Positions 5,366 through 56,357 of a stretch of 64,000 nucleotides of DNA are shown here, in pieces. The position numbers were made by a program, and so were the translations under genes. The stretch comes from Naegleria gruberi (Eukaryota), in the NCBI GenBank assembly GCA_000004985.1, contig GG738851.1, one strand, 5' to 3'. The stretch's first letter is position 1. Each line of letters begins with the position of its first letter. The notes below the pieces were generated by a model, which saw only the letters and a list, made by a program, of their open reading frames with translations, was not told the DNA's origin and made no database searches.

Positions 5366-8300
5366 ATGATGTCAAATAACAAGCAAGGAGGAGTTTTAAA
5401 TATCATCTTTTCAATTATTGTATTGTTTGTATTGTGTGGAGTTTTGGCAATTTCTGCTTGCTATGCTATTACACCAGCTGTAGCAGAGCAAATAGTGAAA
5501 AACCAACAACAACAACAACTAAACAACAATAATGAAGATAAGTCTCCCCAAGAATTTACATATATAAAGAACCTGATACATTCGCAAGGTATGTAAAGCA
5601 TTACGAAGAATTCATCTAACCGTACCATTAAAATGTATACACACAATATAATGTTAACAAATCACGTTCTCTAACAAACAACATTTATTTGGAAATTTAA
5701 AGTAGCCGATAGAAATGAATTTTCTAATATTTTAATTGTAAGTATGAGAAATACTAAAGAGTAAATTTTGTTCTAACACACTTGCTTTTTAATAGAATGA
5801 TCAGGACTTTATTGGAAATCAAAGAAGGACGTACCTTCAACAATTTAGAGACAAACTTGTAAATACGCACAAAGGAAAGCTCCATTTTGATATAAAACTT
5901 GATGATGAGGAAGAAGATGACGAAGAGGAAGAAGAAAGTGGAGCTAGTCAGTCTTCCAATCGTCTAAACTATCAACTCTATAATGTTGATGAGGCAGATA
6001 TAATTGACCTCGAACAACAAAAACATGCCCATACTGATGAAGATAATGGAGATGATACAACACAGCTTGATTCCGTATCACTGGTAAGGAGAAATAATAT
6101 TGATGGAACTTCTGGAAGTTCCAGTGGTGATGGCTCAAGCACAACATCAAACCAATCATCAAAGGGCAATGCTGGGATGCCAACTTCAAATACTAATAAC
6201 GCTGAGATTACAAATACAAGAGTCAAGTTACTATTTGATCCACCATCATTAGACTTTGAAGAAAGGTATGTGTTATTATTGAAAAATTTATTTCAACTTT
6301 ATTTATAGACCACTTTGCAATCCTATTGCAAAAACATTTACAATCACTAAAGAGGATGGAGAAGAAGAAGAAGCTCTTCAAATAACATCAGTATCTACAG
6401 AGTCTCTTTTATTCCATCCATCTATTAGTAAGAAAGAAAATAACAAGATAACAATTAATGTTATTTTTCTCCCTAGAATTTTGAAAAGATCTGAAGGAAT
6501 TATTACTATTAATACGAACTTTGGAGTTTTTTCTTTTAAGGCATTTGGTGGAGGTATTGAAAATGCCTATAACATCAAACCAATTCTTGGACACAAATTA
6601 CCTGTTGGTGCTGATTATAGAAAACCTATTTTTATGCATAATCCACATCAAAATGAATCATTATTAATCAAGGAAATTTACACTAGTGAAGACTTTTTAT
6701 TATTGAGTTTACCAGATCAAAATTCAAATGACAAAACTTATAATAAGAAGAATCCACTTTTATCATTATGGAAAATTGAACCTCACCAAACAAAGTCTAT
6801 TATTTTATTGAATTTCCATGCTAATCAACCTAAAAAACATACAGGATTTGTTCATGTTAATACTAATCGTGGACAATTTATTATTCCTGTTGAATTTATT
6901 GTTTCAAAGAGTGGAGTACATCGTATTGTTGATGAAATTGATTTTGGAACTTTCATCTCTGCCAATGAGAAGAGAACTCGTGACATTGTACTCCTTAACT
7001 CATCTCCAAATCCAGTTTTAGTATCTGAAGCATCTATTGCACAAACTGATGCTCAATTAAAGTTAGAATTTACAAAGAATACCCTTCTTCAAGAAGGATC
7101 AATTTCAAGTGTTGCAAAGGTTACTTATACATCTCAGATACAAGGAGAATTTACTGGAAAAATTATTTTCAAGACCAATGATACTACATCAAAGGAAAAT
7201 GCTGGTATTATTGAAGTTCCATACCGTTCTCGTATTATTCATGGAACTTTAGATTATAGAATGAATAGTACAGCTTTTTATTGTGGTGATGGTAAAGAAA
7301 AGGTTAATGAAATGGTATTAATGAATGGATTTGATGTTCCAATCAAGTTCACTTCTGCTGATGTGTTTGATAAGAGATTTACTATTGAAGATTTTACTAC
7401 TGGTTCTATTTTAGAAAAGAATAGCAAGAAGAGAGTACTTTCTATTCGGTTTAATCCAAGTGACAGTTTTTTGATTCACAAGACTAATCTTATCCTCCAT
7501 ACAAATATTACCAGATTGTACATTCCACTTTATAGCTATCATGGCAATTTAGATCATATTCCAATTAATGCTGAGAAGAATATTCTCAACATTGAAGCTG
7601 CCAATGATGGTATTAATATGGGTATTCTTGGTTTGAGCAGTAGAAAGATTCACTACTTTACTGTTTCCAATATGAATCCTGTACCAATCAAAATATTTGA
7701 CTGGAAGGTAACTGGTATGACAAACAAAAAATCAAGCATTTCCATTTCATATGTCAAGATTTACCAACCTGAGGATGATTTGGGCTCTTTAACTCTTATC
7801 AAACCAACAAAATTAAGTGAAAGTATTAATAGCAAGCATGCTGATGGAAACAAGGATTCTTTCATTTTTGCCATTCTTCCAAACCAAAAGATAATTATGA
7901 GATTGGATATTTACACTCCAACTTCAGATGAAGAACAAAATGGTTTTATTGAGTTTGTGACTCAATACAAATCCTTGACCATTCCTCTCAAGTTTATTTG
8001 TATGGAAGGTAGTTTATCCATTACTAATCAATTACCTTTTGATGTTACTTTCCCTGGTAAAATTCAAAAGAAAAATATCTATGCAACTAATACTTTTGGA
8101 AGAACTATTACCATCTCTGAAATCAAGTCATCTGATGAAAGATTCATTCCAGTCATTACTCATAAAACAATTGAGGCAAACCAAAAGATGAACATTGGTT
8201 ATGTAACCTTGGATGCTTCCAAAGTTCCAAAAGAGAAGAATTACATGATGGATGATGGAAAATCTGCAACTAGTACCTCTAGTTACAATAAGAAGTCCTC

Positions 8301-14133: not shown

Positions 14134-17100
14134 TTATTTAAGCATGTAATAAAATCTAGAACCAACTTGATGAATATATCTCAATTGAGGAATTACTACC
14201 ATTAAGAAAATTCCAACCACTGGAATGATAATGGTCAAGTAGCACATCACCTCAAGAGAAGTAGTGGCCAACAATGTAATGAAAATCTGAGAGGCAGCAC
14301 ATGCAACGCACAAAATACTCGTTCTCATGAGCCAATTCTTGTAATAACTACTTCGCATTATGAGCGCAAACAAGTAGAGAAACAATGTTAATACTTCTCC
14401 AATATAGAGTGGTCCAAAAGTGTAGCCAATACCCTCGAATGAAAATCTAGTGTCTGGATGGTTATTCTCCTTTCCAACATTTTCTTCATTCGCAGTATCT
14501 TGATGATCCAAAAAGGCGGAGAATGCAACCAAAAACCAAACAAGCAAGAAACTCATTGCAGCTCCGTATGCAAGCAAGAAGGGAAAGTTTCGTATAGAGA
14601 TGACCCTTAATTGTCTCTTCATGGCTTCAGTTAAATCGTATGAAATGTATTTTCTGAACAAGTAGACAATACTATCCCAAATTGCAATGACGAATAATAA
14701 TCCTGAAATTATTGCTGCAACAAAATAAATAAAACATGGAATTGCAAAAACTCCAAACCATCCACTCACTTCAAATTGAATCATTAAAAAATCTAAAAGT
14801 GTCAAAATCATGACTGGCACGATGAACATTATTCCAATCAAATGGTAAAAGAATGAATGTGAGGTCAATTTCATTTGCAAACGTTTCATGTAAAAGAGTG
14901 TCTTGTCAGCTCCCGTGAGGCCGATTGAATTTTCCTCATAGAATTCTCTTGCAGGAGAGGGAGGATTGATCCAACTCTTAATCCATGCGAGGCAAAGTTG
15001 GAATTCATCCTCATTTTGTCGGGAGGGGAGTAGAGCTTCTGTATCTGTATTTCTTGGTGAGGTCATGTTATCAGGGTTGGAATGAGATGAACTCAACAAC
15101 TTGTTAATTCTCCTGTACAGAACAAAACTGGTAATCCAAACAGCAGTCCAAGTTGGTAAATAAATTACTAGAGACCAGACCCAAAATATCAAAGATGGTG
15201 TATAGTACATTGTTGAGGAAGAAGCAATAACTGGAATGGTAGTAAATATGTACATGAATAAGAAGGTGGTGGCTACAATGGTGCTAAGCATTTCTGGAAA
15301 GGTATTTCTTAGGAGGAATTTAATATTTTCCTTCTTTTCTGGTTTGTCATTCTCAACTATTTTCAGATTCACCAGTCTTTCGTATTCAAATTGTTGAATC
15401 TTTTTCATTTCAATGAATGTATCCTTGAAGAAGCGATACTTTTTAGAGTGAATGTTCAAATCTTTCAATTCTGGATCTTGTAATGATTTTCCATTTCTCT
15501 TCTTTTTACGTGTATTGGTAATTCTATTAGAAGAGAGGAGGTTGGATGGATCCTCTTCTTCCTCCAAACCATCATCATCGAAAATGTTTCTAATATCAAC
15601 CTTGGTTGACATTCTCTTTTGTTTCTTTCTTCTCTTCTTGGCACTATCAATAATATCTTGATTGATAGTGTGAGGAGATGGAATAACCTCAAATTCATCC
15701 TCTACATCTTGATTTTCAGCCAAAGGAGTGGTGGGTACAGCCTCACCAGGTGGTGTAACGGTATTTTGAGGTGCTTCCAATAATTGATTCTCTCCCTCTT
15801 CAGCAATATTGAAATCATCAGGTGGAGAATCTGTACTTTCCTTAATATCGTGACCGAGGAGAGTGTTCGATATTTTGTTTTGTGAAATGTGATGTTCCAA
15901 TTTTTCTGTCAGCGTGTCTGTGGTAGCAGTAATTTTTCTATCGATGGAATTCATAGTGGCCTTTACTGTATTTCTTACAGCACCAGCCCTCTTAGAAATA
16001 GCAGAGGTAAGTTTGGAGCTGAATTGATTGAGATGCTCCAGAGAAAATTGCTTATTGTTAGCCTGAACGACAGCGTCCATAAAAGTATCCTTATCTGGAA
16101 GTAAATAGTCACATAATACTTGAAGCTTCTTACGAATTTCCTCACGTCTTTGTGGTGAAGTGTAGTATGAGGATATCAACTTGTTCAGATCATTCTTATC
16201 AAAAGCTCTAAAGCTCACTGAAAATCTACTCAGATGGAGAAAGAGCATAATAGTTGCCAAGCTCCACATGTCATTATTACAAGAGGCAATGTGCCACTTT
16301 TTACATACTAGACTGATGTTTGCATTTCCTTGGTGAATCCAAATGTGTCTTCTCTTGGCATGATTTACCATAAACCTCTCACATCTATTCTTTAACTTGA
16401 TTTGCTCTTTAATCTTTTGCTTTTCCTTCTTTTTCTGTTCCTTTGAATAGTTGAGAACTTTTTTGGCTCCTTGTTTCACTGTATTGGCAGTAGAATCCTC
16501 CAATAAAATAGAAGAGTCATCCTTAGATTGACCAGAATCTGAGAAATTTTTAGAGAGAAGCAAGGAAATTGAGGGAACTGAAATACTTCTCTTTAGATTT
16601 TTAATTCTCTCAGTTGCACTCCCTACAATCCTATCAGTGTCCACAAACTTTTTATGTCCTAATCCAGCACTCAACCAATCAGAGGTTAATCCGTCATCCT
16701 CTTCAATTTCAAATTCTGAATAATACTTTTTACTATTCCTATTTTCACTTGAATTTTTTCTTTTAGGTATTGTCGGAGTTGTCAAGCTGCCACTCTTAGA
16801 CCCTTCCATCACTAAATCCTCCAATGAATGTGGAGCATTTCGTAACTTATTCCTAGCAGTATTGAGTGCAACCTCTGGATCCTCATCAAACTCCTCATCA
16901 TCCGATTCGGAATCCTCTTGTTCCTCCTTTTCATTTAATTGGTCACACAAGAATGAAAATATATGTGTCAATAATTTAACACTAAGATTATTGATATGTG
17001 GCATGTGTTCTGACAGATCCTTACTACTATCTTGTCTAATTTTGTTCAATTTTTTAACTCCAATCATTGGTATTTGAATGTGTGAAGATTCATAAACAGA

Positions 17101-36124: not shown

Positions 36125-37555
36125 ATGAGTCAACAACTAACAAGCAACAACTCATCATCAACAGAATCAAATATTTTGGATGGAAGAAGAGAAAGATTGA
36201 TTGTTTCTAACCGATTGATTGAAACCGACATGCCAATGATCAACAAAATTGGACAAATTATTTATGAAGAAAATTCAGTGGTTGTGAATAATACTGCCTC
36301 TTCCGATCAGCAGCAAATGGTTACAAGTTTGTGCCAAGGAATGGTCTATTATAAGCCTCCTCAACAAGTGATGGAATCTCTGATTAGTAATCAATTGGAG
36401 AAGAGTTATAATCCGAGTGATCCCTTCTCTTTCATTCATAATTATTGTGAGCATGATTTTGGAAGGAAACTAGTCAGAGATAAATTGAAAGAAAAGTTGA
36501 AAAAGATGAATGGAATTGATGGAGTGGAAGTGGTTTTAACGAGTGGATGTAATCAGGCCTTCACAAGTGTTGTCCTATCGTTGTGTGATGTTGGAGATGA
36601 GTGTATGGTATTTGGACCATACTATTTCAATCATTATATGGCCTTGCAAATGTTTGGAGTAAGACCAATTGTTTTTGATTGTAGAGAGGAGGATGGTTAT
36701 CAACCTGGAAGTGGAGATGATATGGAACGTTTCACAGAGTTCTTTAAAAAAACAGTTCAGAATCCATCCAACAAATTGAGAATGGTTGTTGTCAATACTC
36801 CATGCAATCCAACTGGCGCTGTCTATACTAAAAACCAATTGGAAGTGATTAGTCAATTATGTAAAGAATATGGCATTTGGTTGATAATGGATGAAACTTA
36901 TGAATGGTTTATTTATAATGATATGCAATCATCGAATGCAATTCATTTTAGTCCACAAGGAGATCATATCATTCACTTGTACAGTTTTTCAAAATGTTTT
37001 GCCATGCCAGGTTGGAGAATTGGCTATTTGACATATCCAGCCACCAATACCACTCTTGGACTCCATCTCAATAAGATCCAAGACACAATTGTAATTTCCT
37101 CCCCACTCCCATCCCAACAACTTGCTCTCAGTGTTACTGAGATGGATGAAGAGTTTGGAAAGATTTGGGCCATGGATAGAATTAACACTCTCAAGGAAAA
37201 TAGAAGAGTCATTTGGAATGCTATTCATGATTTGTGCAATCTGGAGAAAATTCCAGAAGGTGCTATTTACTTTTGGGCAACTCTACCAAATTTTGCAAAT
37301 CATTCGGATAATCAGTTGAGTATTGAAAAGGAATTCCAAGTGATTGAGTGGATGGTAAGAAAGCACAAGGTTGCCGTATTGCCAGGATCATGTTTTGGAA
37401 GAGTTGGAGGATTCAGAATTAGTTATGCCAATGTTTCTGAGAATGCCTGTAAATTAGCCGCCAATAGATTAAGAACAGCCCTTCAAGAACTGAAAGATGG
37501 TCAATTTGAGAAGGATGATCTTTCATTATATGTGAAAACATTCAAGACTCTATAA
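36125..37555 (+). CDS. Class I/II (fold type I) pyridoxal-phosphate-dependent aminotransferase (aspartate/aromatic/kynurenine aminotransferase-like)
   Basis: Single 476-aa ORF. PLP-lysine motif SFSKCFAMPGWRIGYL. Also NTPCNPTGAVYTKNQLEVISQLCKEYGIWLIMDETYEWF and a C-terminal small domain. N-terminal ~55 aa are low complexity. Confidence 0.85.
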   Translation: MSQQLTSNNSSSTESNILDGRRERLIVSNRLIETDMPMINKIGQIIYEENSVVVNNTASSDQQQMVTSLCQGMVYYKPPQQVMESLISNQLEKSYNPSDPFSFIHNYCEHDFGRKLVRDKLKEKLKKMNGIDGVEVVLTSGCNQAFTSVVLSLCDVGDECMVFGPYYFNHYMALQMFGVRPIVFDCREEDGYQPGSGDDMERFTEFFKKTVQNPSNKLRMVVVNTPCNPTGAVYTKNQLEVISQLCKEYGIWLIMDETYEWFIYNDMQSSNAIHFSPQGDHIIHLYSFSKCFAMPGWRIGYLTYPATNTTLGLHLNKIQDTIVISSPLPSQQLALSVTEMDEEFGKIWAMDRINTLKENRRVIWNAIHDLCNLEKIPEGAIYFWATLPNFANHSDNQLSIEKEFQVIEWMVRKHKVAVLPGSCFGRVGGFRISYANVSENACKLAANRLRTALQELKDGQFEKDDLSLYVKTFKTL

Positions 37556-37680: not shown

Positions 37681-38441
37681 ATGTGGGGCTTTCAAAAAAC
37701 AATGTCTCAACAACAGTGCCTTACTACAAGTCAAGATAACAATAATAGTTCATCATCATCGGCAACAATAACATCGAATCAAATTTCATCCAATATAGTG
37801 ATCACAACACCAGATCAAATCATCATTGATACTTCTAAGGTTACTTCCTCACAATTACTACCGTCATCATCCAAATCTACACAGCAACAACAGCAGAAAT
37901 CTAAAACCAACAAGTATAAATCAATTAAAAGAGGATCCAACTTTAATTCATTTGGAATTTGCTTCAGTAGCAAAGAATTTACAAATAGGATCCATCTATA
38001 CCCTATTCATGTGTGGATTCATAGCTGTGATAATGAAGCCAGCGAAGGAACCTATTTGGACTACAGTGATTCCTGGTGCTTATTGTCTCTTCCTTTCCTT
38101 TCTCTGCTATGTTTGGTGTTTTGTTAGTGAATTCAATAAGGAAACGAAGGAAACTGTGGACAATGTATTGAATCCGAAATATTGGACCGAGAGAGTCTGT
38201 TTTTTCCTATCAAGAATGAATAGGAATGAATTTCAGTGTGCCTTTTGTTTTGTGTAAGTATCAATGTCTGGATTTTCAAAAAGGAATGCATTATTTACAT
38301 TTACTTAATTCTCTAACAACATTGGCTTTCTTTTGTGTGCAGACGGCTTTGGCTGGATTTAACTTACTCTTTGCATGTGTATTTTTTCTTGTAGCAGCCA
38401 TCAGAAGAGAGAAAGCGACTCGAATAACTGGCCTTGTTTGA
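37681..38441 (+). CDS. Small multi-pass membrane protein; 5' structure ambiguous (frame discontinuity). Terminal intron 38252..38342.
   Basis: ORF 37681..38127 (Ser/Asn/Gln-rich) and ORF 37826..38257 (TM helices IYTLFMCGFIAVIM, VIPGAYCLFLSFLCYVWCFV) overlap in different frames. No GT-AG intron of the right phase is found between them. The last exon (38343..38441, TALAGFNLLFACVFFLVAAIRREK...) is joined by GTGTAAGT at 38252 and a GCAG acceptor at 38341-42, phase 0. Confidence 0.4.
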
Positions 38442-38672
38442 GCATTTTCTTGTTATTATAGCGTCTACTTAATATATTGTAATACTTGGCTCTCTCCGAC
38501 AATTCTCCGCATGGCTGTTGAGAACTTCTTAAAAAATTCAATTTTGAGTTTGGTGTTGGTTGTTGAGGTGTTCTGGCGCCAAAACAAACATAAGAAAAAT
38601 GCTCATATTGTATTATTACCTTCCGCACGGTCATAGAATCGTAACAGAACGAGCAAACATCATTATCAAAAT

Positions 38673-41216
38673 ATGGCTTCATCAAATCATGGTATCCAAG
38701 AAGGAGTTGGAATGTTATGCAGAAGAGAATTGGTGGATAATTATCAAATCCTACTAGAACAGGCTCAAGCAAACATTAATGCAGGTAGTTGCTCTCTGGA
38801 TGGTTTTTGTAGTCATCACAGTATGGAGAGTAATCATCACGAAACAGAGGAATACACTCTCGGAATGGTTCATAATAAGGAGTCGGAAAGAGTATTCTTA
38901 AATGACTATTTTATGAATACCATTAAAAGAGGAGTAAAGAGGTATGATTTTGAGAAGGATCCTATTCAGATTCAGTACAATGTTTTGCATACACCTTCTC
39001 ATGTTAAGGTATTGAAGAATATAGTATCAAAACCTCATCCTGTAGTGTCATGCTATTGTACGGCATATAGCGAACATTATCCACTGATAATAATTCCAGA
39101 TCATATTTGGATGATGATTTCTCAATCCTTGGTTAGACATTTGCATCTTCATCCTGAAATTTTGCAGCAAGTTGATATTAAAAAGAAGGAAATGAGAGTG
39201 GAAATGCCTACACATTACAACGAAGAAACACAATCAACAAATTGGAGTGCAGTAATTGAAGATATTCATCAACAAATTGTTCAAACATGTACAACAAGCG
39301 AAAAGTTGGATTTGGATGGATTTTTGGATCATAACTTTTCCACATCAACTTCAGTGGAAAAGGTTGCATCAAAGATTTTACTCATGGAGGCCTTTAAGGA
39401 TTACTTTACATATACCAATGATTTTATGTGTGGAATTCCTTGTGTGACAATATTGGGAACTCTGCAAGACTGGACATTGATGAGACAGAAAGTCAATAGA
39501 TTGGATGATTTTGGTATGGGATGGTGGAGAAAGGTATTGGCTCTCATAATTGATAGAATAATTGAAACAGCCCAAAAGGATACACTGACAGACGAATTGA
39601 AATTGTTCTGGAATGGAGTGGCAAGGTTTGACAGTAGTAGTGGAGAGAATTTTATTACTGGTTGGATCAACTATTTTTTCCCATACGATAAGGATGGAAA
39701 TATTTCAAACCAAATGCAATCATTTATGGAGATGGAAGAGAGATTCCCTAATGTTGATAAATATGTGGACGATTTTGAGGATCATGGTTTTGAGGATTGT
39801 GAATTTGAAGAAGAAGAAGGCGAGAATTCTCCTCAATCTTCAATAGAACTAGCCGCTTTAAAGATGCAGAAAACATTCAGATGGAAACCATCTTTTAATG
39901 AGGATTGCTTTCCTTGCCCTCTAGCAATTGCAAAGGTCAATGTTGAAAATCATCCATCCTTAAAAGAGTTGTACTATGTTTCCGGATTTATGGGAATTGA
40001 TTTTGATCATGAAATTGGAGGTTTAAAACCTGTTATATCTTGGGCTATAGCAGAGAAGAGAAGTGAGGCTGTTAGAGAAAATCTAATGAAGGGCCAATTC
40101 AAACATGCAATGTGGGCAATAGACTGTGGTTATACTAGTTGGAGAGCTTCCATATCTCTCTCATCTACACAAACTAAGCCAATAGGCTCAATCAATATTG
40201 GATTTACCAGTGATGGAGAGCAGGAGAATGTTTTTGAAAGTAAGGAAAGAATGATTGAGATATTCACCGCTTTGAAAGAATCACTTGTGAGGCAATTCAT
40301 TGAGGAGGAAGTTAATTTGGGATCAAACGATAATTTGAAATTCTTGGAAGGAGAGCATGTTCTCTTGATGTCTCCTGCTGAAGTCAACCAAGAGCTGCTT
40401 CTTCAATGCGCCAAATCTGCTGGTTTGAAACCAATATGTTGGGTGGAAGATCCATGTCATAATATTCCTCAAGCATTTTCCCATTTGGTGAAAACTAACG
40501 AATGTGTACTGACTATTGATTGGCCAACTGGAGAACCATTCTTTGCCATGTCCAAGAAGGAGCATTGGAATGAGTTCGATCTTTTTGCATCAAGTGTTGA
40601 AGGCAAGAAGGAAACTCAGGGACTTGGTGGCGGTTTCAGTTTTACTGACATGCTGTACACCTATTTTTATGATCAACACCCTGAAATTGCAGAGGAAAAT
40701 TCTCACTTTTTAATGATGGAATGTGAGAGAGCCAAAAAGGTTCTCTCAACTGAAGACAAGGTTGACATCTTGATTAATGGAAAGTCTATTGAGGTGATAA
40801 CAAGACAAACTTTCGAACAGGTGTGCTCACCTATTTTCAATTCATTCCAACAACAATTGAATGCTTTCCTTTCTAGGCCTTTCAATAATACCAATGAGAC
40901 TTTGAAAGATCGTGTCAATTATTTGGTGCTGTCTGGTGGATGTTGTAGAATTCCTCTCGTTCAACAAATCATTCATACATGCCTTCCAAAATCTGTACAG
41001 ACACTCAGTAATCCAGAGGATACTTGCTATCTTTCCTCAGCAGGAGGTGCTCAAACATTCAGAAGCAGTCATTACAATAATATTCAATTTGAGGAATTCT
41101 TTAGAGATCCTCATTCTGAAATCTTCTCTGACAATGAATCGTCACTCTATCCACACAAAGATCCACAAGAAAGTGATATTGCAATTGCTGAAGGTGACGA
41201 TCACGACAATGAATAA
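38673..41216 (+). CDS. Divergent Hsp70-superfamily protein: about 380-aa N-terminal extension followed by an Hsp70-like nucleotide-binding domain. No substrate-binding domain is recognisable.
   Basis: Single 847-aa ORF. C-terminal half aligns motif-by-motif with the Hsp70 NBD. VLLMSPAEVNQELLLQCAKSAGLKPICWVEDPCHNIPQAF matches VTVPAYFNDSQRQATKDAG.IAGLNVLRIINEPTAAA. LGGGFSFTDML matches HLGGEDFDNRM. MMECERAKKVLSTEDKVDILINGKSIEVITRQTFEQVCSPIF matches ACERAKRTLSS...ITRARFEEL. YLVLSGGCCRIPLVQQII matches IVLVGGSTRIPKIQKLL. NPEDTCYLSSAGGAQ matches NPDEAVAYGAAVQAA. Confidence 0.75.
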   Translation: MASSNHGIQEGVGMLCRRELVDNYQILLEQAQANINAGSCSLDGFCSHHSMESNHHETEEYTLGMVHNKESERVFLNDYFMNTIKRGVKRYDFEKDPIQIQYNVLHTPSHVKVLKNIVSKPHPVVSCYCTAYSEHYPLIIIPDHIWMMISQSLVRHLHLHPEILQQVDIKKKEMRVEMPTHYNEETQSTNWSAVIEDIHQQIVQTCTTSEKLDLDGFLDHNFSTSTSVEKVASKILLMEAFKDYFTYTNDFMCGIPCVTILGTLQDWTLMRQKVNRLDDFGMGWWRKVLALIIDRIIETAQKDTLTDELKLFWNGVARFDSSSGENFITGWINYFFPYDKDGNISNQMQSFMEMEERFPNVDKYVDDFEDHGFEDCEFEEEEGENSPQSSIELAALKMQKTFRWKPSFNEDCFPCPLAIAKVNVENHPSLKELYYVSGFMGIDFDHEIGGLKPVISWAIAEKRSEAVRENLMKGQFKHAMWAIDCGYTSWRASISLSSTQTKPIGSINIGFTSDGEQENVFESKERMIEIFTALKESLVRQFIEEEVNLGSNDNLKFLEGEHVLLMSPAEVNQELLLQCAKSAGLKPICWVEDPCHNIPQAFSHLVKTNECVLTIDWPTGEPFFAMSKKEHWNEFDLFASSVEGKKETQGLGGGFSFTDMLYTYFYDQHPEIAEENSHFLMMECERAKKVLSTEDKVDILINGKSIEVITRQTFEQVCSPIFNSFQQQLNAFLSRPFNNTNETLKDRVNYLVLSGGCCRIPLVQQIIHTCLPKSVQTLSNPEDTCYLSSAGGAQTFRSSHYNNIQFEEFFRDPHSEIFSDNESSLYPHKDPQESDIAIAEGDDHDNE

Positions 41217-41301: not shown

Positions 41302-43413
41302 ATGCAACAACAACCAACGACACAGCAACAACAACAACAGAAACCCAGTGGTGGTACAACCACAACGCCTACATCGGCGGGTACAACAACAACAAATCTG
41401 GCACAGGCAACATCAACTGGATCATCCTCTTCATCATCATCAAGAAGAGTGATGGTCAAGTCGTTGGGTAGATTTATTCAATTAAAAGAAAAACATATTG
41501 GTTCGGGAGCCTATGCTGATGTTTACGAGGGTTATAATCAAGATACAAAGGAAAAGGTTGCTATCAAAGTTATACAGAGAAACAAACTTCATGATCGTTT
41601 AATTCAAAATTTAGAATCTGAAATTACGGTTATGAAACGTATCAAGTCTGACTATGTGATCAAACTCTACGAAGTACATAGAAGTAAGAGAAATTATTAT
41701 TTGATTTTAGAATTGTGTAGTGGAGGTGAATTGGCCAAGTTTTTAAAGAAGGGTAAACTTCCAAAGGAAGTTATGAATCCTTTTGGTGGTATCAAGGAAT
41801 CTATTGTAAAGAAGTTTATTCTACACTTGTCAAAGGGTTTGAAACATATGCATGAGCAAAATTTGATTCACAGAGATTTGAAACCAGCCAATTTATTATT
41901 TAGTAGACCTTTCCAAATTATTAATAAGGACAAGCAAGATTTGACCTATAAGGATGTAGATTTTGGCTTTTTGAAAATTGCTGATTTTGGTTTTGCTCGT
42001 GAAATTGGTCCAAATGATTTGGCACAAACTCTCTGTGGTACTCCTCTTTATATGGCGTAAGTTTGATGATGAAATATTGCTTCTTTACAACAATTTTTTA
42101 CAATTTATTTCGAAAAAATCAAATTTATTACGGCCGTTTGAAATAACAGTCCAGAAATCTTATCAGGTCAAAAGTATAATATCAAGGCTGATTTGTGGTC
42201 TCTGGGTGCTATTATTTATGAAATGCTGTTTGCTAGACCACCTTACATGGCCTCCAATCAATTTGACTTGTTGAATCAAATCAAGAAGGGTCCACCAAGT
42301 TATCCAGCTACCAATTCATCCTTCTCTCAAGGAGTTATTGATTTATTGAAGGGACTCTTGCAATGTGAACCTGAATATCGTATGAACTTTGTACAATTCT
42401 ACAATCATTACTATCTCATAGCTCTTAGAGAGGAATTTGGAGACTGTGAAGAATTGAACACCAACATCTTGCCACCAACAGTTGTTGAGCCAACACCACA
42501 AGAACCTGTAATTAATCCAAATGTAGTGGAACCACCAGTGGTTGATATTGTACCAGTAGTAGTTCAAGAACAAACACCGCCACCGATTGTACAACCAATT
42601 GTACCAGTTGTAGAGGCTGTTAAAGAATTCCCAATTACAGCGCAAGTCAAACCTGAGGACATTCTTGAAGAAGTACCATTGGAAAAGATTGTTGCTGACA
42701 AGCTCTTCATTTCCAATCCAAGTGAAGATGGTACCTCAAAGCCATCACAACCATTGGGCGGAGGAAATGTTGTCATTATCATGGATCAACGTATTCCTTC
42801 TGATGAGGCTTTTAAAAAGACCAAGGAATATAGTTTGGATTCAGTTATTGGAACAAACCCAACTGTAATCTTTGACTTTTCAAATCTTTCCTGTGGTGAG
42901 GAATGTCGTGCATTATTGGGCCAAATTGAAAAGAAGGCCAAGCTCGCTTGGTTCATTTCAGAAACAGGGTTGGTCATGGAAAAGAACTTGAAGTATAGTG
43001 AAGCCTATGCATTGTATGTTAGAGCTTGCATTCTCATTAGAGATTGTTTGACAATATTGAAGGAAAATGTTGAAAATAATGACAGATCTCAAACATTTAC
43101 CATCTTACTTCGTGATTGGTTAACTGATTTCTTCACACATGGTGAAGCAGTTCAAAATAAGATTATTACAAAGGAAGTTGATGTAAATAATATAATTTAT
43201 CAAATGGCTATCGAGCTTGCCAAGGAAGCAGCCCACAAGGAATATCTTGGTTCCATGGAATGTATTGGGCTTTATGTGAGAGCTAAACATTTCCTCACCT
43301 ATTTGATGGAAGAAAGCTTCTCTGATAAGAAGAAATTCAATGATTTTGTTGAGAATTTTAATTCTAGAATTAGTTACTTGGAGGAACAATACACTAAAGC
43401 AAACAACTTGTAA
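41302..43413 (+). CDS. ULK/Atg1-family Ser/Thr protein kinase with a Pro/Val-rich linker and a C-terminal MIT-like helical domain (ULK3-like architecture). Two exons: 41302..42056 and 42150..43413.
   Basis: ORFs 41302..42060 and 42193..43413 are joined by a 93-nt intron (GTAAGT at 42057; ACAG at 42148-49; phase 2), giving ...GTPLYMA|PEILSGQKYNIKADLWSLGAIIYEML.... Kinase motifs GSGAYADVYEG, VAIKVI, HRDLKPANLL, DFGFAR. C-terminus ...EAYALYVRACILIRDCL...IIYQMAIELAKEAAHKEYLGSMECIGLYVRAKHFLTYL is MIT-like. Confidence 0.8.
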
Positions 43414-53871: not shown

Positions 53872-56357
53872 NNNNNNNNNNNNNNNNNNNNNNNNNNNNN
53901 NNNNNNNNNNNNNNNNNNNNNNNNNNNNNNNNNNNNNNNNNNNNNNNNNNNNNNNNNNNNNNNNNNNNNNNNNNNNNNNNNNNNNNNNNNNNNNNNNNNN
54001 NNNNNNNNNNNNNNNNNNNNNNNNNNNNNNNNNNNNNNNNNNNNNNNNNNNNNNNNNNNNNNNNNNNNNNNNNNNNNNNNNNNNNNNNNNNNNNNNNNNN
54101 NNNNNNNNNNNNNNNNNNNNNNNNNNNNNNNNNNNNNNNNNNNNNNNNNNNNNNNNNNNNNNNNNNNNNNNNNNNNNNNNNNNNNNNNNNNNNNNNNNNN
54201 NNNNNNNNNNNNNNNNNNNNNNNNNNNNNNNNNNNNNNNNNNNNNNNNNNNNNNNNNNNNNNNNNNNNNNNNNNNNNNNNNNNNNNNNNNNNNNNNNNNN
54301 NNNNNNNNNNNNNNNNNNNNNNNNNNNNNNNNNNNNNNNNNNNNNNNNNNNNNNNNNNNNNNNNNNNNNNNNNNNNNNNNNNNNNNNNNNNNNNNNNNNN
54401 NNNNNNNNNNNNNNNNNNNNNNNNNNNNNNNNNNNNNNNNNNNNNNNNNNNNNNNNNNNNNNNNNNNNNNNNNNNNNNNNNNNNNNNNNNNNNNNNNNNN
54501 NNNNNNNNNNNNNNNNNNNNNNNNNNNNNNNNNNNNNNNNNNNNNNNNNNNNNNNNNNNNNNNNNNNNNNNNNNNNNNNNNNNNNNNNNNNNNNNNNNNN
54601 NNNNNNNNNNNNNNNNNNNNNNNNNNNNNNNNNNNNNNNNNNNNNNNNNNNNNNNNNNNNNNNNNNNNNNNNNNNNNNNNNNNNNNNNNNNNNNNNNNNN
54701 NNNNNNNNNNNNNNNNNNNNNNNNNNNNNNNNNNNNNNNNNNNNNNNNNNNNNNNNNNNNNNNNNNNNNNNNNNNNNNNNNNNNNNNNNNNNNNNNNNNN
54801 NNNNNNNNNNNNNNNNNNNNNNNNNNNNNNNNNNNNNNNNNNNNNNNNNNNNNNNNNNNNNNNNNNNNNNNNNNNNNNNNNNNNNNNNNNNNNNNNNNNN
54901 NNNNNNNNNNNNNNNNNNNNNNNNNNNNNNNNNNNNNNNNNNNNNNNNNNNNNNNNNNNNNNNNNNNNNNNNNNNNNNNNNNNNNNNNNNNNNNNNNNNN
55001 NNNNNNNNNNNNNNNNNNNNNNNNNNNNNNNNNNNNNNNNNNNNNNNNNNNNNNNNNNNNNNNNNNNNNNNNNNNNNNNNNNNNNNNNNNNNNNNNNNNN
55101 NNNNNNNNNNNNNNNNNNNNNNNNNNNNNNNNNNNNNNNNNNNNNNNNNNNNNNNNNNNNNNNNNNNNNNNNNNNNNNNNNNNNNNNNNNNNNNNNNNNN
55201 NNNNNNNNNNNNNNNNNNNNNNNNNNNNNNNNNNNNNNNNNNNNNNNNNNNNNNNNNNNNNNNNNNNNNNNNNNNNNNNNNNNNNNNNNNNNNNNNNNNN
55301 NNNNNNNNNNNNNNNNNNNNNNNNNNNNNNNNNNNNNNNNNNNNNNNNNNNNNNNNNNNNNNNNNNNNNNNNNNNNNNNNNNNNNNNNNNNNNNNNNNNN
55401 NNNNNNNNNNNNNNNNNNNNNNNNNNNNNNNNNNNNNNNNNNNNNNNNNNNNNNNNNNNNNNNNNNNNNNNNNNNNNNNNNNNNNNNNNNNNNNNNNNNN
55501 NNNNNNNNNNNNNNNNNNNNNNNNNNNNNNNNNNNNNNNNNNNNNNNNNNNNNNNNNNNNNNNNNNNNNNNNNNNNNNNNNNNNNNNNNNNNNNNNNNNN
55601 NNNNNNNNNNNNNNNNNNNNNNNNNNNNNNNNNNNNNNNNNNNNNNNNNNNNNNNNNNNNNNNNNNNNNNNNNNNNNNNNNNNNNNNNNNNNNNNNNNNN
55701 NNNNNNNNNNNNNNNNNNNNNNNNNNNNNNNNNNNNNNNNNNNNNNNNNNNNNNNNNNNNNNNNNNNNNNNNNNNNNNNNNNNNNNNNNNNNNNNNNNNN
55801 NNNNNNNNNNNNNNNNNNNNNNNNNNNNNNNNNNNNNNNNNNNNNNNNNNNNNNNNNNNNNNNNNNNNNNNNNNNNNNNNNNNNNNNNNNNNNNNNNNNN
55901 NNNNNNNNNNNNNNNNNNNNNNNNNNNNNNNNNNNNNNNNNNNNNNNNNNNNNNNNNNNNNNNNNNNNNNNNNNNNNNNNNNNNNNNNNNNNNNNNNNNN
56001 NNNNNNNNNNNNNNNNNNNNNNNNNNNNNNNNNNNNNNNNNNNNNNNNNNNNNNNNNNNNNNNNNNNNNNNNNNNNNNNNNNNNNNNNNNNNNNNNNNNN
56101 NNNNNNNNNNNNNNNNNNNNNNNNNNNNNNNNNNNNNNNNNNNNNNNNNNNNNNNNNNNNNNNNNNNNNNNNNNNNNNNNNNNNNNNNNNNNNNNNNNNN
56201 NNNNNNNNNNNNNNNNNNNNNNNNNNNNNNNNNNNNNNNNNNNNNNNNNNNNNNNNNNNNNNNNNNNNNNNNNNNNNNNNNNNNNNNNNNNNNNNNNNNN
56301 NNNNNNNNNNNNNNNNNNNNNNNNNNNNNNNNNNNNNNNNNNNNNNNNNNNNNNNNN
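53872..56357. other. Assembly gap: 2486 consecutive N
   Basis: Run of n characters from 53872 to 56357; the ORFs reported across it (for example 53786..56401) are artefacts. Confidence 1.

What the first reader, a model, noticed from the sequence alone, without database searches (positions are those of the whole stretch)
38673..41216. Hsp70-like nucleotide-binding domain on a ~380-aa N-terminal extension, without a substrate-binding domain
The C-terminal ~470 aa align motif-by-motif with the Hsp70 NBD: the phosphate-2/connect region (VLLMSPAEVNQELLLQCAKSAGLKPICWVEDPCHNIPQAF), the HLGGEDFD-like LGGGFSFTD, the ERAKR motif (MMECERAKKVLS), and the adenosine-binding VLSGGCCRIPLVQQII (compare LVGGSTRIPKIQ). 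Key residues are diverged, and the protein stops right after the NBD. The first 380 aa (MASSNHGIQEGVGMLCRRELVDNYQILLEQ...GIPCVTILGTLQDWTLMRQKVNRLDDFGMGWW...) show no resemblance to Hsp70. This looks like an NBD-only member of the Hsp70/actin-like ATPase superfamily (as with HSPA12/STCH-type proteins) with a novel N-terminal domain. Whether it binds ATP is unclear.
Basis: partly seen in the sequence, partly recalled or inferred. Interest (0 to 1): 0.5.

Follow-up and report, generated by a model that had tools for sequence, protein, structure and literature searches.

The report
DUF4419 fused to stripped-down Hsp70 ATPase domain

Summary
The 847-aa ORF at 38673..41216 (+) is real. It is identical to N. 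gruberi "predicted protein" NAEGRDRAFT_63746 (XP_002681138.1, UniProt D2V4I9).

The Hsp70-like observation holds:
- Pfam HSP70 passes its cut-off (E=4.5e-9), though only for residues 680-784.
- hhalign covers the whole NBD (probability 99.5%, HSPA1A 2-383).
- An AlphaFold model (pLDDT 83) best matches DnaK/Hsp70 NBDs.
- No linker or substrate-binding domain follows.

The interpretation needs three corrections:
1. The N-terminal part is not novel. Residues 122-459 match Pfam DUF4419 full length (E=1.3e-71), a family seen here in Bacteroidota and in giant and insect viruses.
2. The NBD covers about 326 aa (478-803), not 470. It lacks subdomain IB and has no conserved Lys71 equivalent. Its phosphate-2 loop is remodelled (DLGGGTFD to DWPTGEPF). 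Asp10, Asp199 and the adenosine-pocket residues are kept.
3. The organism is a heterolobosean, not an amoebozoan.

The fusion was found in three places only. These are N. gruberi, a microsyntenic metagenomic orthologue with a complete NBD, and an N. lovaniensis copy that has lost about 220 aa, including lobe I.

The most likely reading is a non-chaperone protein whose NBD still binds nucleotide or acts as a scaffold. Its function is untested.

The parts
38673..41216 (+). Complete single-exon gene of 847 codons plus stop. It is N. gruberi NAEGRDRAFT_63746 / XP_002681138.1 / UniProt D2V4I9.
   Evidence: ORF list. Database protein P0001 is 100% identical over 100% of the length.
38673..39035 (+). 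N-terminal leader, residues 1-121. Residues 1-62 are poorly conserved and modelled with low confidence. Residues ~63-121 are conserved within the Naegleria subfamily.
   Evidence: AlphaFold pLDDT is below 50 for 1-22, 37-67 and 78-98. Three-way alignment. tblastn to L010 begins at residue 63. No signal-peptide-like N-terminus is visible by eye, unlike the bacterial homologues.
39036..40049 (+). DUF4419 domain (Pfam PF14388), residues 122-459. All strictly invariant family residues are kept: H135, P137, P142, D143, W146, Q151, W191, C253, G254, D266, W267, G330, W331, F336, P337, Y338.
   Evidence: Pfam E=1.3e-71 over profile positions 1-303 of 303. Conservation in a 103-sequence alignment. It is 48-50% identical to the other two family members.
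40050..40103 (+). Short linker between the domains, residues 460-477.
   Evidence: It lies between the end of the Pfam DUF4419 match and the start of the hhalign NBD alignment at residue 477. It is partly conserved in L010.
40104..41081 (+). Reduced Hsp70-type nucleotide-binding domain, residues ~478-803, containing subdomains IA, IIA and IIB only.
   Evidence: hhalign probability 99.0-99.5% against HSPA1A 2-386. AlphaFold model pLDDT 83.4, pTM 0.83. Foldseek top hits are DnaK/Hsp70/BiP NBDs at E~1e-15.
40113..40142 (+). Phosphate-1 motif WAIDCGYTSW, residues 481-490. It corresponds to GIDLGTTYS in Hsp70. Asp10 = D484, Gly12 = G486 and Thr14 = T488 are kept; Thr13 is replaced by Tyr.
   Evidence: Residue mapping. 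The metagenomic orthologue has WAIDCGSTSW, and this block (residues 470-510) is 44% identical between the two.
40197..40241 (+). Loop of 15 residues (509-523) that stands where subdomain IB sits in Hsp70 (about HSPA1A 40-115, including catalytic Lys71).
   Evidence: hhalign gaps. In the model, strands 480-508 are followed by this loop and then one long helix, 524-549. The orthologue shares the deletion and has no Lys at the aligned position.
40509..40541 (+). Remodelled phosphate-2 loop LTIDWPTGEPF, residues 613-623. The Hsp70 equivalent is LIFDLGGGTFD. Asp199 = D616 is kept; GGGT becomes PTGE and Asp206 becomes Phe.
   Evidence: Residue mapping. The orthologue has LTVDWGSSDPF, which gives a shared D-W-x-[ST]-[GS]-[ED]-P-F pattern.
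40629..40907 (+). Subdomain IIB, residues 653-745. It holds the best-conserved Hsp70 similarity, including ECERAKKVLS (Glu268 = E685, Lys271 = K688, Arg272 to K689, Ser275 = S692).
   Evidence: The Pfam HSP70 match covers 680-784. PDB alignments. Residue mapping. The N. lovaniensis copy retains only this part plus the following IIA segment.
40923..40964 (+). Adenosine-binding motif LVLSGGCCRIPLVQ, residues 751-764. Gly338-Gly339 = G755-G756 and Arg342 = R759.
   Evidence: G755, G756, I760, P761, V763 and Q764 are invariant in all three family members.
41082..41213 (+). Acidic C-terminal tail, residues 804-847 (14 D/E, 2 K/R). It contains no Hsp70 interdomain linker and no substrate-binding domain.
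   Evidence: Sequence composition. Model pLDDT is below 50 beyond residue ~803. Pfam reports no further domain.

Best explanation
The gene encodes a Naegleria-lineage fusion protein with no signal peptide visible by eye, so it is probably cytosolic (inferred). An intact DUF4419 domain is followed by a cut-down Hsp70-type nucleotide-binding domain (IA + IIA + IIB, no IB) and an acidic tail.

**Shown**
- The identity and boundaries of both domains.
- The loss of subdomain IB, with no conserved Lys71 equivalent.
- The loss of the GGGT phosphate-2 loop and of Asp206.
- The retention of Asp10, Asp199, Thr14, the Gly-Gly adenosine motif and the IIB adenosine-contact residues.
- The absence of a linker and substrate-binding domain.
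- The restriction of the fusion to Naegleria-like genomes.

**Inferred**
- It is not a chaperone of the Hsp70 type. It has no client-binding domain, and its partner domain is attached to the opposite end from the Hsp70 linker, so the Hsp70 allosteric cycle cannot operate.
- The NBD most likely still binds adenine nucleotide but hydrolyses it slowly or not at all by the Hsp70 mechanism.
- The NBD would then serve as a nucleotide-sensing or purely structural and interaction module attached to DUF4419.
- DUF4419 carries the primary, still unknown activity.
For: - **Domain identities:** Pfam DUF4419 E=1.3e-71 and HSP70 E=4.5e-9. hhalign probability 99.5%, E=2e-22 over HSPA1A 2-383. AlphaFold pLDDT 83. 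Foldseek top 50 hits are all Hsp70/DnaK/BiP NBDs.
- **IB loss:** hhalign gaps and the model's secondary structure. The orthologue L010 shares the loss.
- **Active-site map:**
- **Selective constraint on the whole NBD:**
  - The microsyntenic orthologue L010 keeps the full NBD at 34% identity.
  - Identity is highest in the phosphate-1 block (44%), IIB (38%) and the adenosine motif (45%). It is 20-28% elsewhere.
- **DUF4419 as the primary module:**
  - It is more conserved than the NBD: 48-50% against 30-34%.
  - All family-invariant residues are kept.
  - It exists as a stand-alone protein in more than 100 bacterial and viral relatives. Many of the bacterial ones appear to carry signal peptides, and none of those inspected has an Hsp70 neighbour.
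- **NBD integrity is dispensable in one lineage:** N. lovaniensis P0002 is an intact 593-aa ORF that lacks residues 437-656, which cover lobe I and the phosphate-2 sheet.
Against: - No biochemical or expression data exist for this protein or for any DUF4419 protein.
- Other actin-fold ATPases hydrolyse ATP without a Lys71 equivalent. Both full-length orthologues have an acidic residue at the Thr204 position and Asp at the Glu175 position. A remodelled but active catalytic site is therefore not excluded.
- Alignment in the IB-deletion region is uncertain. Two hhalign runs place the gaps differently.
- The AlphaFold NBD model used an alignment made of canonical Hsp70s, so its Hsp70-like shape is partly inherited.
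- Interdomain contacts could not be modelled.
- The N. lovaniensis copy may be a decaying gene rather than evidence about function.
Confidence: 0.55

Rival explanations
1. The NBD is an active ATPase or phosphotransferase with a remodelled catalytic site. The IB-less NBD would hydrolyse or transfer phosphate from ATP using D484, D593, D616 and the new acidic residue E621, driving or modifying whatever DUF4419 binds. This would be a new kind of Hsp70-derived motor or kinase.
For: - The metal-coordinating Asp10 and Asp199 equivalents, Thr14, the Gly-Gly motif and the adenosine-pocket residues are kept in both full-length orthologues.
- The phosphate-2 loop is changed but conserved as D-W-x-[ST]-[GS]-[ED]-P-F between orthologues, rather than randomised.
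- The nucleotide-site blocks are the best-conserved parts of the NBD.
- Established knowledge: other ASKHA enzymes such as sugar kinases use carboxylates, not a Lys71, in catalysis.
Against: - No conserved Lys71 equivalent, with subdomain IB absent. Asp206 is replaced by Phe. Two of the three phosphate-2 glycines are lost in N. gruberi.
- Established knowledge: Lys71 is essential for Hsc70 hydrolysis. The K71A and K71E mutant structures 1kay and 1kaz appear among the hits.
- The N. lovaniensis copy has dispensed with half of the domain.
- No substrate is known.
Confidence: 0.2
2. The NBD is a non-nucleotide-binding relic. It would be an evolutionary remnant retained only as a folding or interaction scaffold, for example a IIB surface that recruits Hsp70 co-chaperones or nucleotide-exchange factors, or a domain on its way to being lost.
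For: - The N. lovaniensis copy keeps only IIB plus the C-terminal part of IIA.
- No copy was found among N. fowleri proteins in the searches.
- The NBD evolves faster than DUF4419.
- Catalytic residues are degraded.
Against: - The full NBD is kept over ~300 residues in the syntenic orthologue despite only 34% identity.
- The nucleotide-contact residues D484, G486, T488, D616, E685, K688, S692, G755 and G756 are all identical between the two. A pure scaffold would not need that.
Confidence: 0.2
3. The fusion is an annotation or assembly artefact, with two adjacent genes (a DUF4419 gene and an Hsp70-like gene) wrongly read as one.
For: In the metagenomic contig L010 the gene caller split the region into two genes, P0152 and a 424-aa product.
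Against: - In N. gruberi the 2,541-nt reading frame is continuous, with no stop (chance ~1e-28).
- In N. lovaniensis both parts again lie in one continuous 1,782-nt ORF.
- The L010 split lies inside DUF4419 (near residue 310), not at the domain junction. A single missing A in an AAAA run explains it.
- The junction region is conserved between N. gruberi and L010.
Confidence: 0.02

Closest known systems
Canonical Hsp70/DnaK nucleotide-binding domain (Pfam PF00012; e.g. human HSPA1A residues 1-385)
   Same: - Actin-like two-lobe fold.
- Phosphate-1 'IDxG.T' strand with the Asp10 equivalent, and the Asp199 equivalent.
- IIB helix motif CE[RK]AK..LS with Glu268, Lys271 and Ser275.
- Adenosine motif GG..[RN]IP.VQ.
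- The best sequence and fold matches are eukaryotic cytosolic Hsp70 NBDs.
   Different: - Subdomain IB (~60-70 residues) is absent, and there is no conserved Lys71 equivalent.
- Substitutions: Thr13 to Tyr, Glu175 to Asp, GGGT phosphate-2 loop to PTGE, Asp206 to Phe, Glu231 and Asp234 lost.
- No hydrophobic interdomain linker, no substrate-binding domain and no EEVD tail.
- The domain is at the C-terminus of the protein behind another domain, instead of at the N-terminus.
NBD-only or atypical Hsp70 relatives: HSPA13/STCH, HSPA12A/B, bacterial YegD (description from my own knowledge; only YegD's NCBIfam model PRK11678 was compared here)
   Same: Hsp70-type ATPase domain without a canonical peptide-binding domain.
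   Different: - From my own knowledge, STCH and YegD have a complete four-subdomain NBD and are essentially NBD-only. HSPA12 has insertions rather than a IB deletion. None is fused to DUF4419.
- No specific sequence kinship was seen. The YegD-type model PRK11678 scored only E=0.094.
- The exhaustive search gave nothing better than E~1e-9 outside Naegleria.
DUF4419 family (Pfam PF14388): about 400-540-aa proteins of Bacteroidota, plus giant-virus, entomopoxvirus and LbFV proteins
   Same: Full-length domain match with all invariant residues. The predicted fold matches viral DUF4419 models at E down to 1e-14.
   Different: - The relatives inspected are single-domain, and many of the bacterial ones appear to carry a signal peptide and a ~150-aa C-terminal extension.
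- Only the Naegleria-type proteins carry an Hsp70 NBD.
- The Naegleria proteins differ at several positions that are near-invariant in the bacterial group: R136 to Y, C150 to S, K334 to Y.
- No function, no solved structure and no detectable structural relative.

Membership tests
Hsp70 family (Pfam PF00012) | Significant match to the family profile above the curated threshold | tested here: met
   PF00012 E=4.5e-9, 35.5 bits against a cut-off of 20.6. Only profile positions 256-363 of 599 are matched. hhalign covers the whole NBD at probability 99.5%.
Hsp70 family (Pfam PF00012) | Complete four-subdomain NBD (IA, IB, IIA, IIB) | tested here: not met
   A 15-residue loop (509-523) replaces IB. 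This shows in the hhalign gaps and in the AlphaFold secondary structure. The orthologue L010 shares the feature.
Hsp70 family (Pfam PF00012) | Catalytic residues Lys71, Glu175, Asp10, Asp199, Thr204, Asp206 and the GGG phosphate-2 loop | tested here: not met
   Asp10 (D484) and Asp199 (D616) are kept. There is no conserved Lys71 equivalent. Glu175 becomes Asp, Thr204 becomes Glu, Asp206 becomes Phe, and G201/G202 become Pro/Thr.
Hsp70 family (Pfam PF00012) | Adenosine-binding residues (Glu268, Lys271, Arg272, Ser275, Gly338-Gly339, Arg342) | tested here: met
   E685, K688, K689 (conservative change), S692, G755, G756 and R759. All but 689 and 759 are identical in L010.
Hsp70 family (Pfam PF00012) | Interdomain linker plus C-terminal substrate-binding domain and lid | tested here: not met
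   Only a 44-residue acidic tail follows the NBD. Pfam reports no further domain.
Hsp70 family (Pfam PF00012) | ATP binding and hydrolysis; chaperone activity | not testable with these tools
   This needs biochemistry.
Actin-like ATPase (ASKHA) superfamily | Two RNase-H-like lobes with phosphate-1 DxG, phosphate-2 DxG and adenosine GG motifs | tested here: met
   - The model has both beta-sheet lobes at pLDDT 83.
- Phosphate-1 is D484-C-G486.
- Phosphate-2 is D616-W-P in N. gruberi and D-W-G in L010, so the Gly is lost in N. gruberi only.
- The adenosine motif is G755-G756.
DUF4419 (Pfam PF14388) | Full-length profile match and retention of family-invariant residues | tested here: met
   E=1.3e-71 over profile positions 1-303 of 303. 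All strictly invariant columns and 38 of 60 near-invariant columns are kept.
HSPA12 / HSPA13 (STCH)-type atypical Hsp70s | Specific orthology, i.e. closer to these than to other Hsp70s | not tested
   No reference sequences for these were compared directly. The exhaustive search shows no relative closer than ~30% identity over IIB, so specific membership is unlikely.

The most novel reading that the evidence does not exclude
The fusion could be a functional 'Rosetta stone'. DUF4419 would be a ligand-binding, client-binding or catalytic module, and its activity would be gated by the nucleotide state of a minimal, IB-less Hsp70 NBD with reversed domain order and a rebuilt, carboxylate-rich phosphate-2 loop. 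That would be a new type of Hsp70-derived nucleotide switch, or even a phosphotransferase. It would also link the widespread orphan family DUF4419, including its giant-virus and entomopoxvirus members, to the Hsp70 system.
Probability: 0.12. Interest if true: 0.6.

Novelty: new variant of a known kind. Interest (0 to 1): 0.3.

Why it matters
The practical importance is modest.

- **A minimal Hsp70 NBD.** The protein is a natural example of an Hsp70 NBD stripped of subdomain IB, Lys71 and the substrate-binding domain, yet kept under constraint in at least two genomes. It could show what the minimal Hsp70 NBD can still do, such as bind nucleotide or bind co-chaperones.
- **A lead for DUF4419.** This is the only domain fusion found here for DUF4419, an orphan family seen in Bacteroidota, giant viruses and insect viruses. 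It offers one of the few testable leads to that family's function.
- **Limits.** The fusion was found only in Naegleria-like genomes. It is partly lost in N. lovaniensis, was not found in N. fowleri, and public Pfam annotation already shows it. A specialist would find it curious, not surprising.

Tried and rejected
1. **Third word-index homology search.** The query was residues 470-816 at E<=10. It returned nothing, not even the protein itself. I treat this as a tool quirk, and the search was wasted.
2. **AFDB fold search of the DUF4419 model.** The library was unavailable.
3. **DUF4419 against solved structures.**
   - The DUF4419 profile against PDB sequences gave nothing.
   - No structural clue to function came from either.
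4. **Family libraries and literature.**
   - PHROGs gave no hit for the whole protein. NCBIfam gave only sub-threshold HscA/DnaK matches to it and nothing for two bacterial DUF4419 proteins.
   - The literature holds only two passing mentions of DUF4419.
   - No paper mentions the protein's accessions.
   - No paper on Naegleria Hsp70 variants was found.
5. **Bacterial gene neighbourhoods.** Two DUF4419 proteins were checked. They had no Hsp70 neighbour and no recurrent partner.
6. **Extra domains in long DUF4419 proteins.** None was found.
7. **Synteny between N. gruberi and the N. lovaniensis locus.** None within about 6 kb. Orthology versus paralogy of P0002 stays open.
8. **Paralogues in the window.** None.
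9. **Heat-shock elements upstream.** The window count is at chance level (43 against 41 expected), and none lies in 38260-38672.
10. **Metagenome scan for more family members.** It gave one stand-alone DUF4419 gene on a virus-like contig and no further fusion.
11. **Gene-fusion artefact.** Rejected; see the rival explanations.
12. **dN/dS.** Not attempted, because at 34-50% amino-acid identity synonymous sites are saturated.
Full report
**What is there**

The window is eukaryotic DNA with about 35% G+C. An uninterrupted ORF runs from 38673 to 41216 on the + strand and encodes 847 aa. At this base composition a stop-free run of that length has a chance probability of about 1e-28.

The product is 100% identical over its full length to Naegleria gruberi 'predicted protein' NAEGRDRAFT_63746 (EFC48394.1, XP_002681138.1, UniProt D2V4I9). 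The organism is therefore a heterolobosean amoeboflagellate, not an amoebozoan. No paper in the searchable library mentions the protein.

**Domain content**

Pfam finds two domains:
- DUF4419 (PF14388): E=1.3e-71, residues 122-459, covering the whole 303-position profile.
- HSP70 (PF00012): E=4.5e-9, 35.5 bits against a gathering score of 20.6. It covers only residues 680-784, which correspond to profile positions 256-363.

The 'novel N-terminal domain' is thus a known Pfam family of unknown function. The public precomputed annotation of this protein already lists both families.

**Is the whole C-terminal part an Hsp70 NBD?**

- phmmer against PDB sequences aligns residues 654-796 with residues 230-378 of human HSPA1A (E~3e-6).
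- A profile-profile comparison extends the match to the whole domain.
  - With the N. gruberi sequence alone, residues 477-807 align with HSPA1A 3-386 at probability 99.0% and E=2.4e-18.
  - With a two-sequence family profile the values are probability 99.5% and E=2.1e-22.
  - The Hsp70 profile was built from hits to this protein, so these E-values are somewhat flattering. The Pfam and PDB results are independent of that.
- An AlphaFold2 model of residues 470-816 has mean pLDDT 83.4 and pTM 0.83.
- The 50 best Foldseek matches in the PDB are all DnaK, Hsp70 or BiP NBDs at E~1e-15 and TM~0.6. The input alignment consisted of Hsp70s, which partly pre-determines the shape.

The NBD is only about 326 residues long (478-803). 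After the three N-terminal strands of subdomain IA (480-508), a 15-residue loop (509-523) leads straight into a long helix (524-549). That helix corresponds to the helix at HSPA1A ~116-135. Subdomain IB (about HSPA1A 40-115) is therefore missing. The two hhalign runs distribute the gaps differently, but neither yields a conserved Lys71 equivalent.

Residue map, HSPA1A to N. gruberi / orthologue L010:

| HSPA1A | N. gruberi | L010 |
|---|---|---|
| Asp10 | D484 | D |
| Gly12 | G486 | G |
| Thr13 | Y | S |
| Thr14 | T488 | T |
| Glu175 | D593 | D |
| Asp199 | D616 | D |
| Gly201-Gly202-Gly203-Thr204 | P-T-G-E | G-S-S-D |
| Asp206 | F | F |
| Glu231 | F | V |
| Asp234 | T | T |
| Glu268 | E685 | E |
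| Lys271 | K688 | K |
| Arg272 | K | I |
| Ser275 | S692 | S |
| Gly338-Gly339 | G755-G756 | G-G |
| Ser340-Thr341 | C-C | T-S |
| Arg342 | R759 | N |

The adenosine pocket and the two metal-site aspartates survive. The Hsp70-specific hydrolytic apparatus does not. From established knowledge, that apparatus comprises Lys71, the gamma-phosphate loop and Asp206, and Lys71 is essential for Hsc70 hydrolysis. The K71A and K71E mutant structures 1kay and 1kaz appear among the fold hits.

After the NBD come 44 acidic, low-confidence residues and the stop codon. There is no linker and no substrate-binding domain.

**Relatives and distribution**

- *NBD side.* An exhaustive phmmer search with residues 460-847 against 1.84 billion representative proteins gave only 73 hits at E<=1e-3.
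  - Only two hits reach E<=1e-10: the protein itself and N. lovaniensis P0002 at 8e-11. The next best hit is at 9e-10.
  - All 71 non-Naegleria hits are bona fide PF00012 proteins, and none contains DUF4419.
- *DUF4419 side.* A profile search gave 101 proteins. Most are Bacteroidota proteins of about 540 aa, and those inspected have N-termini that look like signal peptides. Only the Naegleria proteins carry PF00012.
  - Ten long representatives have no other domain.
  - Two bacterial neighbourhoods show no Hsp70 gene and no recurrent partner.
  - The predicted DUF4419 fold matches viral DUF4419 models from entomopoxviruses, LbFV, Orpheovirus, Yasminevirus, Marseillevirus, Pithovirus, Fadolivirus and Catovirus. 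Some of these are labelled 'inhibitor of apoptosis' by their depositors, which is an untested name.
  - The literature has only two passing mentions of DUF4419.
- *Metagenome scan.* It added one stand-alone DUF4419 gene on a virus-like contig and no fusion.

**The three family members**

1. **N. gruberi**: complete, 847 aa.
2. **Metagenomic contig L010** (ERZ27315067, 6.7 kb, 38.6% G+C).
   - tblastn shows DUF4419 at 48% identity, followed by the rest of DUF4419 and a complete NBD at 34% identity. The match runs up to the contig end at the adenosine motif.
   - The gene caller split the region because of a 1-nt frame change in an AAAA run near position 5430, inside DUF4419. This is probably an assembly error.
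   - L010 is microsyntenic with the window. The immediately upstream gene (window 37874-38441) is conserved in the same orientation. The aminotransferase gene is nearby but inverted. L010 is therefore an orthologue from another Naegleria-like organism.
   - It shares the IB deletion and the remodelled phosphate-2 loop, giving the pattern D-W-x-[ST]-[GS]-[ED]-P-F.
   - Identity between the two is highest in the phosphate-1 block (44%), IIB (38%) and the adenosine motif (45%). It is 20-28% elsewhere. This suggests constraint on the nucleotide site, although these blocks are also the structural core.
3. **N. lovaniensis P0002**: 593 aa, one continuous ORF.
   - DUF4419 is 50% identical.
   - Residues 437-656 of the N. 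gruberi protein have no counterpart. The missing part covers the last DUF4419 strands, lobe I and the phosphate-2 sheet. Only IIB plus the C-terminal part of IIA remains, at 30% identity.
   - Its flanks are not syntenic with the window.

No N. fowleri homologue appeared in any search. This is absence of evidence only.

**Interpretation**

*Shown:*
- The protein is a genuine, conserved fusion of DUF4419 with a reduced Hsp70 NBD.
- The fusion was found only in Naegleria-like genomes, and no SBD is present.

*Inferred:*
- It cannot work as an Hsp70 chaperone. It has no client-binding domain and no linker. The partner domain joins the NBD at strand beta-1 instead of leaving from the C-terminal helix, so Hsp70 allostery has no structural basis.
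- DUF4419 is the better-conserved part. It keeps every family-invariant residue. It also functions alone elsewhere, including in bacterial proteins whose N-termini look like signal peptides, where ATP would be absent if they are exported. DUF4419 is therefore probably the primary functional module.
- The NBD most likely still binds adenine nucleotide but is a poor or inactive hydrolase by the Hsp70 mechanism. It would then act as a nucleotide-sensing or scaffolding appendage. My confidence in this is about 0.55.

*Rivals:*
- A rebuilt, active catalytic site, suggested by the acidic residue at the Thr204 position in both orthologues: about 0.2.
- A non-binding relic or interaction scaffold, suggested by the N. 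lovaniensis truncation: about 0.2.
- An annotation artefact: effectively excluded, because the two domains lie in one continuous ORF in N. gruberi and N. lovaniensis, and the frame break in L010 lies inside DUF4419 rather than at the junction.

There is no heat-shock element upstream, and the neighbouring genes are unrelated in function. Context therefore gives no functional hint.

**Verdict**

I classify it as a new variant of a known kind. It is an IB-less Hsp70 NBD with reversed domain order, fused to DUF4419, lineage-restricted and partly decaying. Interest is modest at 0.3. Its main value is as the only fusion-based lead to the function of DUF4419 and as a natural minimal Hsp70 NBD.

Noticed in passing
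window 53872-56357: A run of N about 2.5 kb long, which is an assembly gap in the scaffold.
   Followed up: no
window 41302-43413 (+): The gene 85 bp downstream is an ATG1/ULK-like Ser/Thr kinase (Pkinase plus MIT / ATG1-like MIT2 domains). The kinase domain is split between two ORFs, which implies one short intron around 42061-42192.
   Followed up: partly
window 37681-38441 (+): The upstream neighbour is a Ser/Gln-rich protein with no Pfam hit. It appears to contain a GTAAGT...CAG intron at about 38255-38341. It is conserved next to the fusion gene in the metagenomic orthologous contig L010.
   Followed up: partly
L010 1-6719 compared with window 14134-16716 and 36203-36607: The metagenomic Naegleria-like contig places a homologue of a gene lying about 22 kb away in N. 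gruberi (window 14134-16716) between the aminotransferase and the upstream neighbour. The aminotransferase is inverted. This is a local rearrangement between the two genomes.
   Followed up: no
L010 ~5425-5440: A 1-nt frame change in an AAAA run splits the orthologue into two called genes. One extra A restores a reading that is colinear with N. gruberi ('DDLKTIWNSVARYD'). It is probably an assembly or sequencing error, but a real frameshift is not excluded.
   Followed up: partly
L011 242-1357 and 2261-3088: A 3.3-kb metagenomic contig (34% G+C) carries a stand-alone 371-aa DUF4419 gene. Beside it is an ORF whose N-terminus looked GIY-YIG-like to me by eye. The contig may come from a giant virus.
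   Followed up: no
L001 6001-7782 (N. lovaniensis PYSW02000037.1): The N. lovaniensis family member is an intact ORF. It lacks the equivalent of N. gruberi residues 437-656 and sits in a different gene neighbourhood (RasGAP, myosin-TH1 kinase, RecQ-like helicase). It is either a relocated, internally deleted orthologue or a paralogue.
   Followed up: partly
DUF4419 relatives P0003, P0004 and P0076-P0150: The bacterial DUF4419 proteins are mostly about 540 aa. Those inspected have N-termini that look like Bacteroidota signal peptides. They carry a ~150-aa C-terminal extension with no Pfam match. These features suggest an extracytoplasmic role for the stand-alone domain.
   Followed up: partly
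window 36125-37555 (+): A class I/II aminotransferase gene (Pfam Aminotran_1_2, E=3e-46) lies two genes upstream.
   Followed up: no
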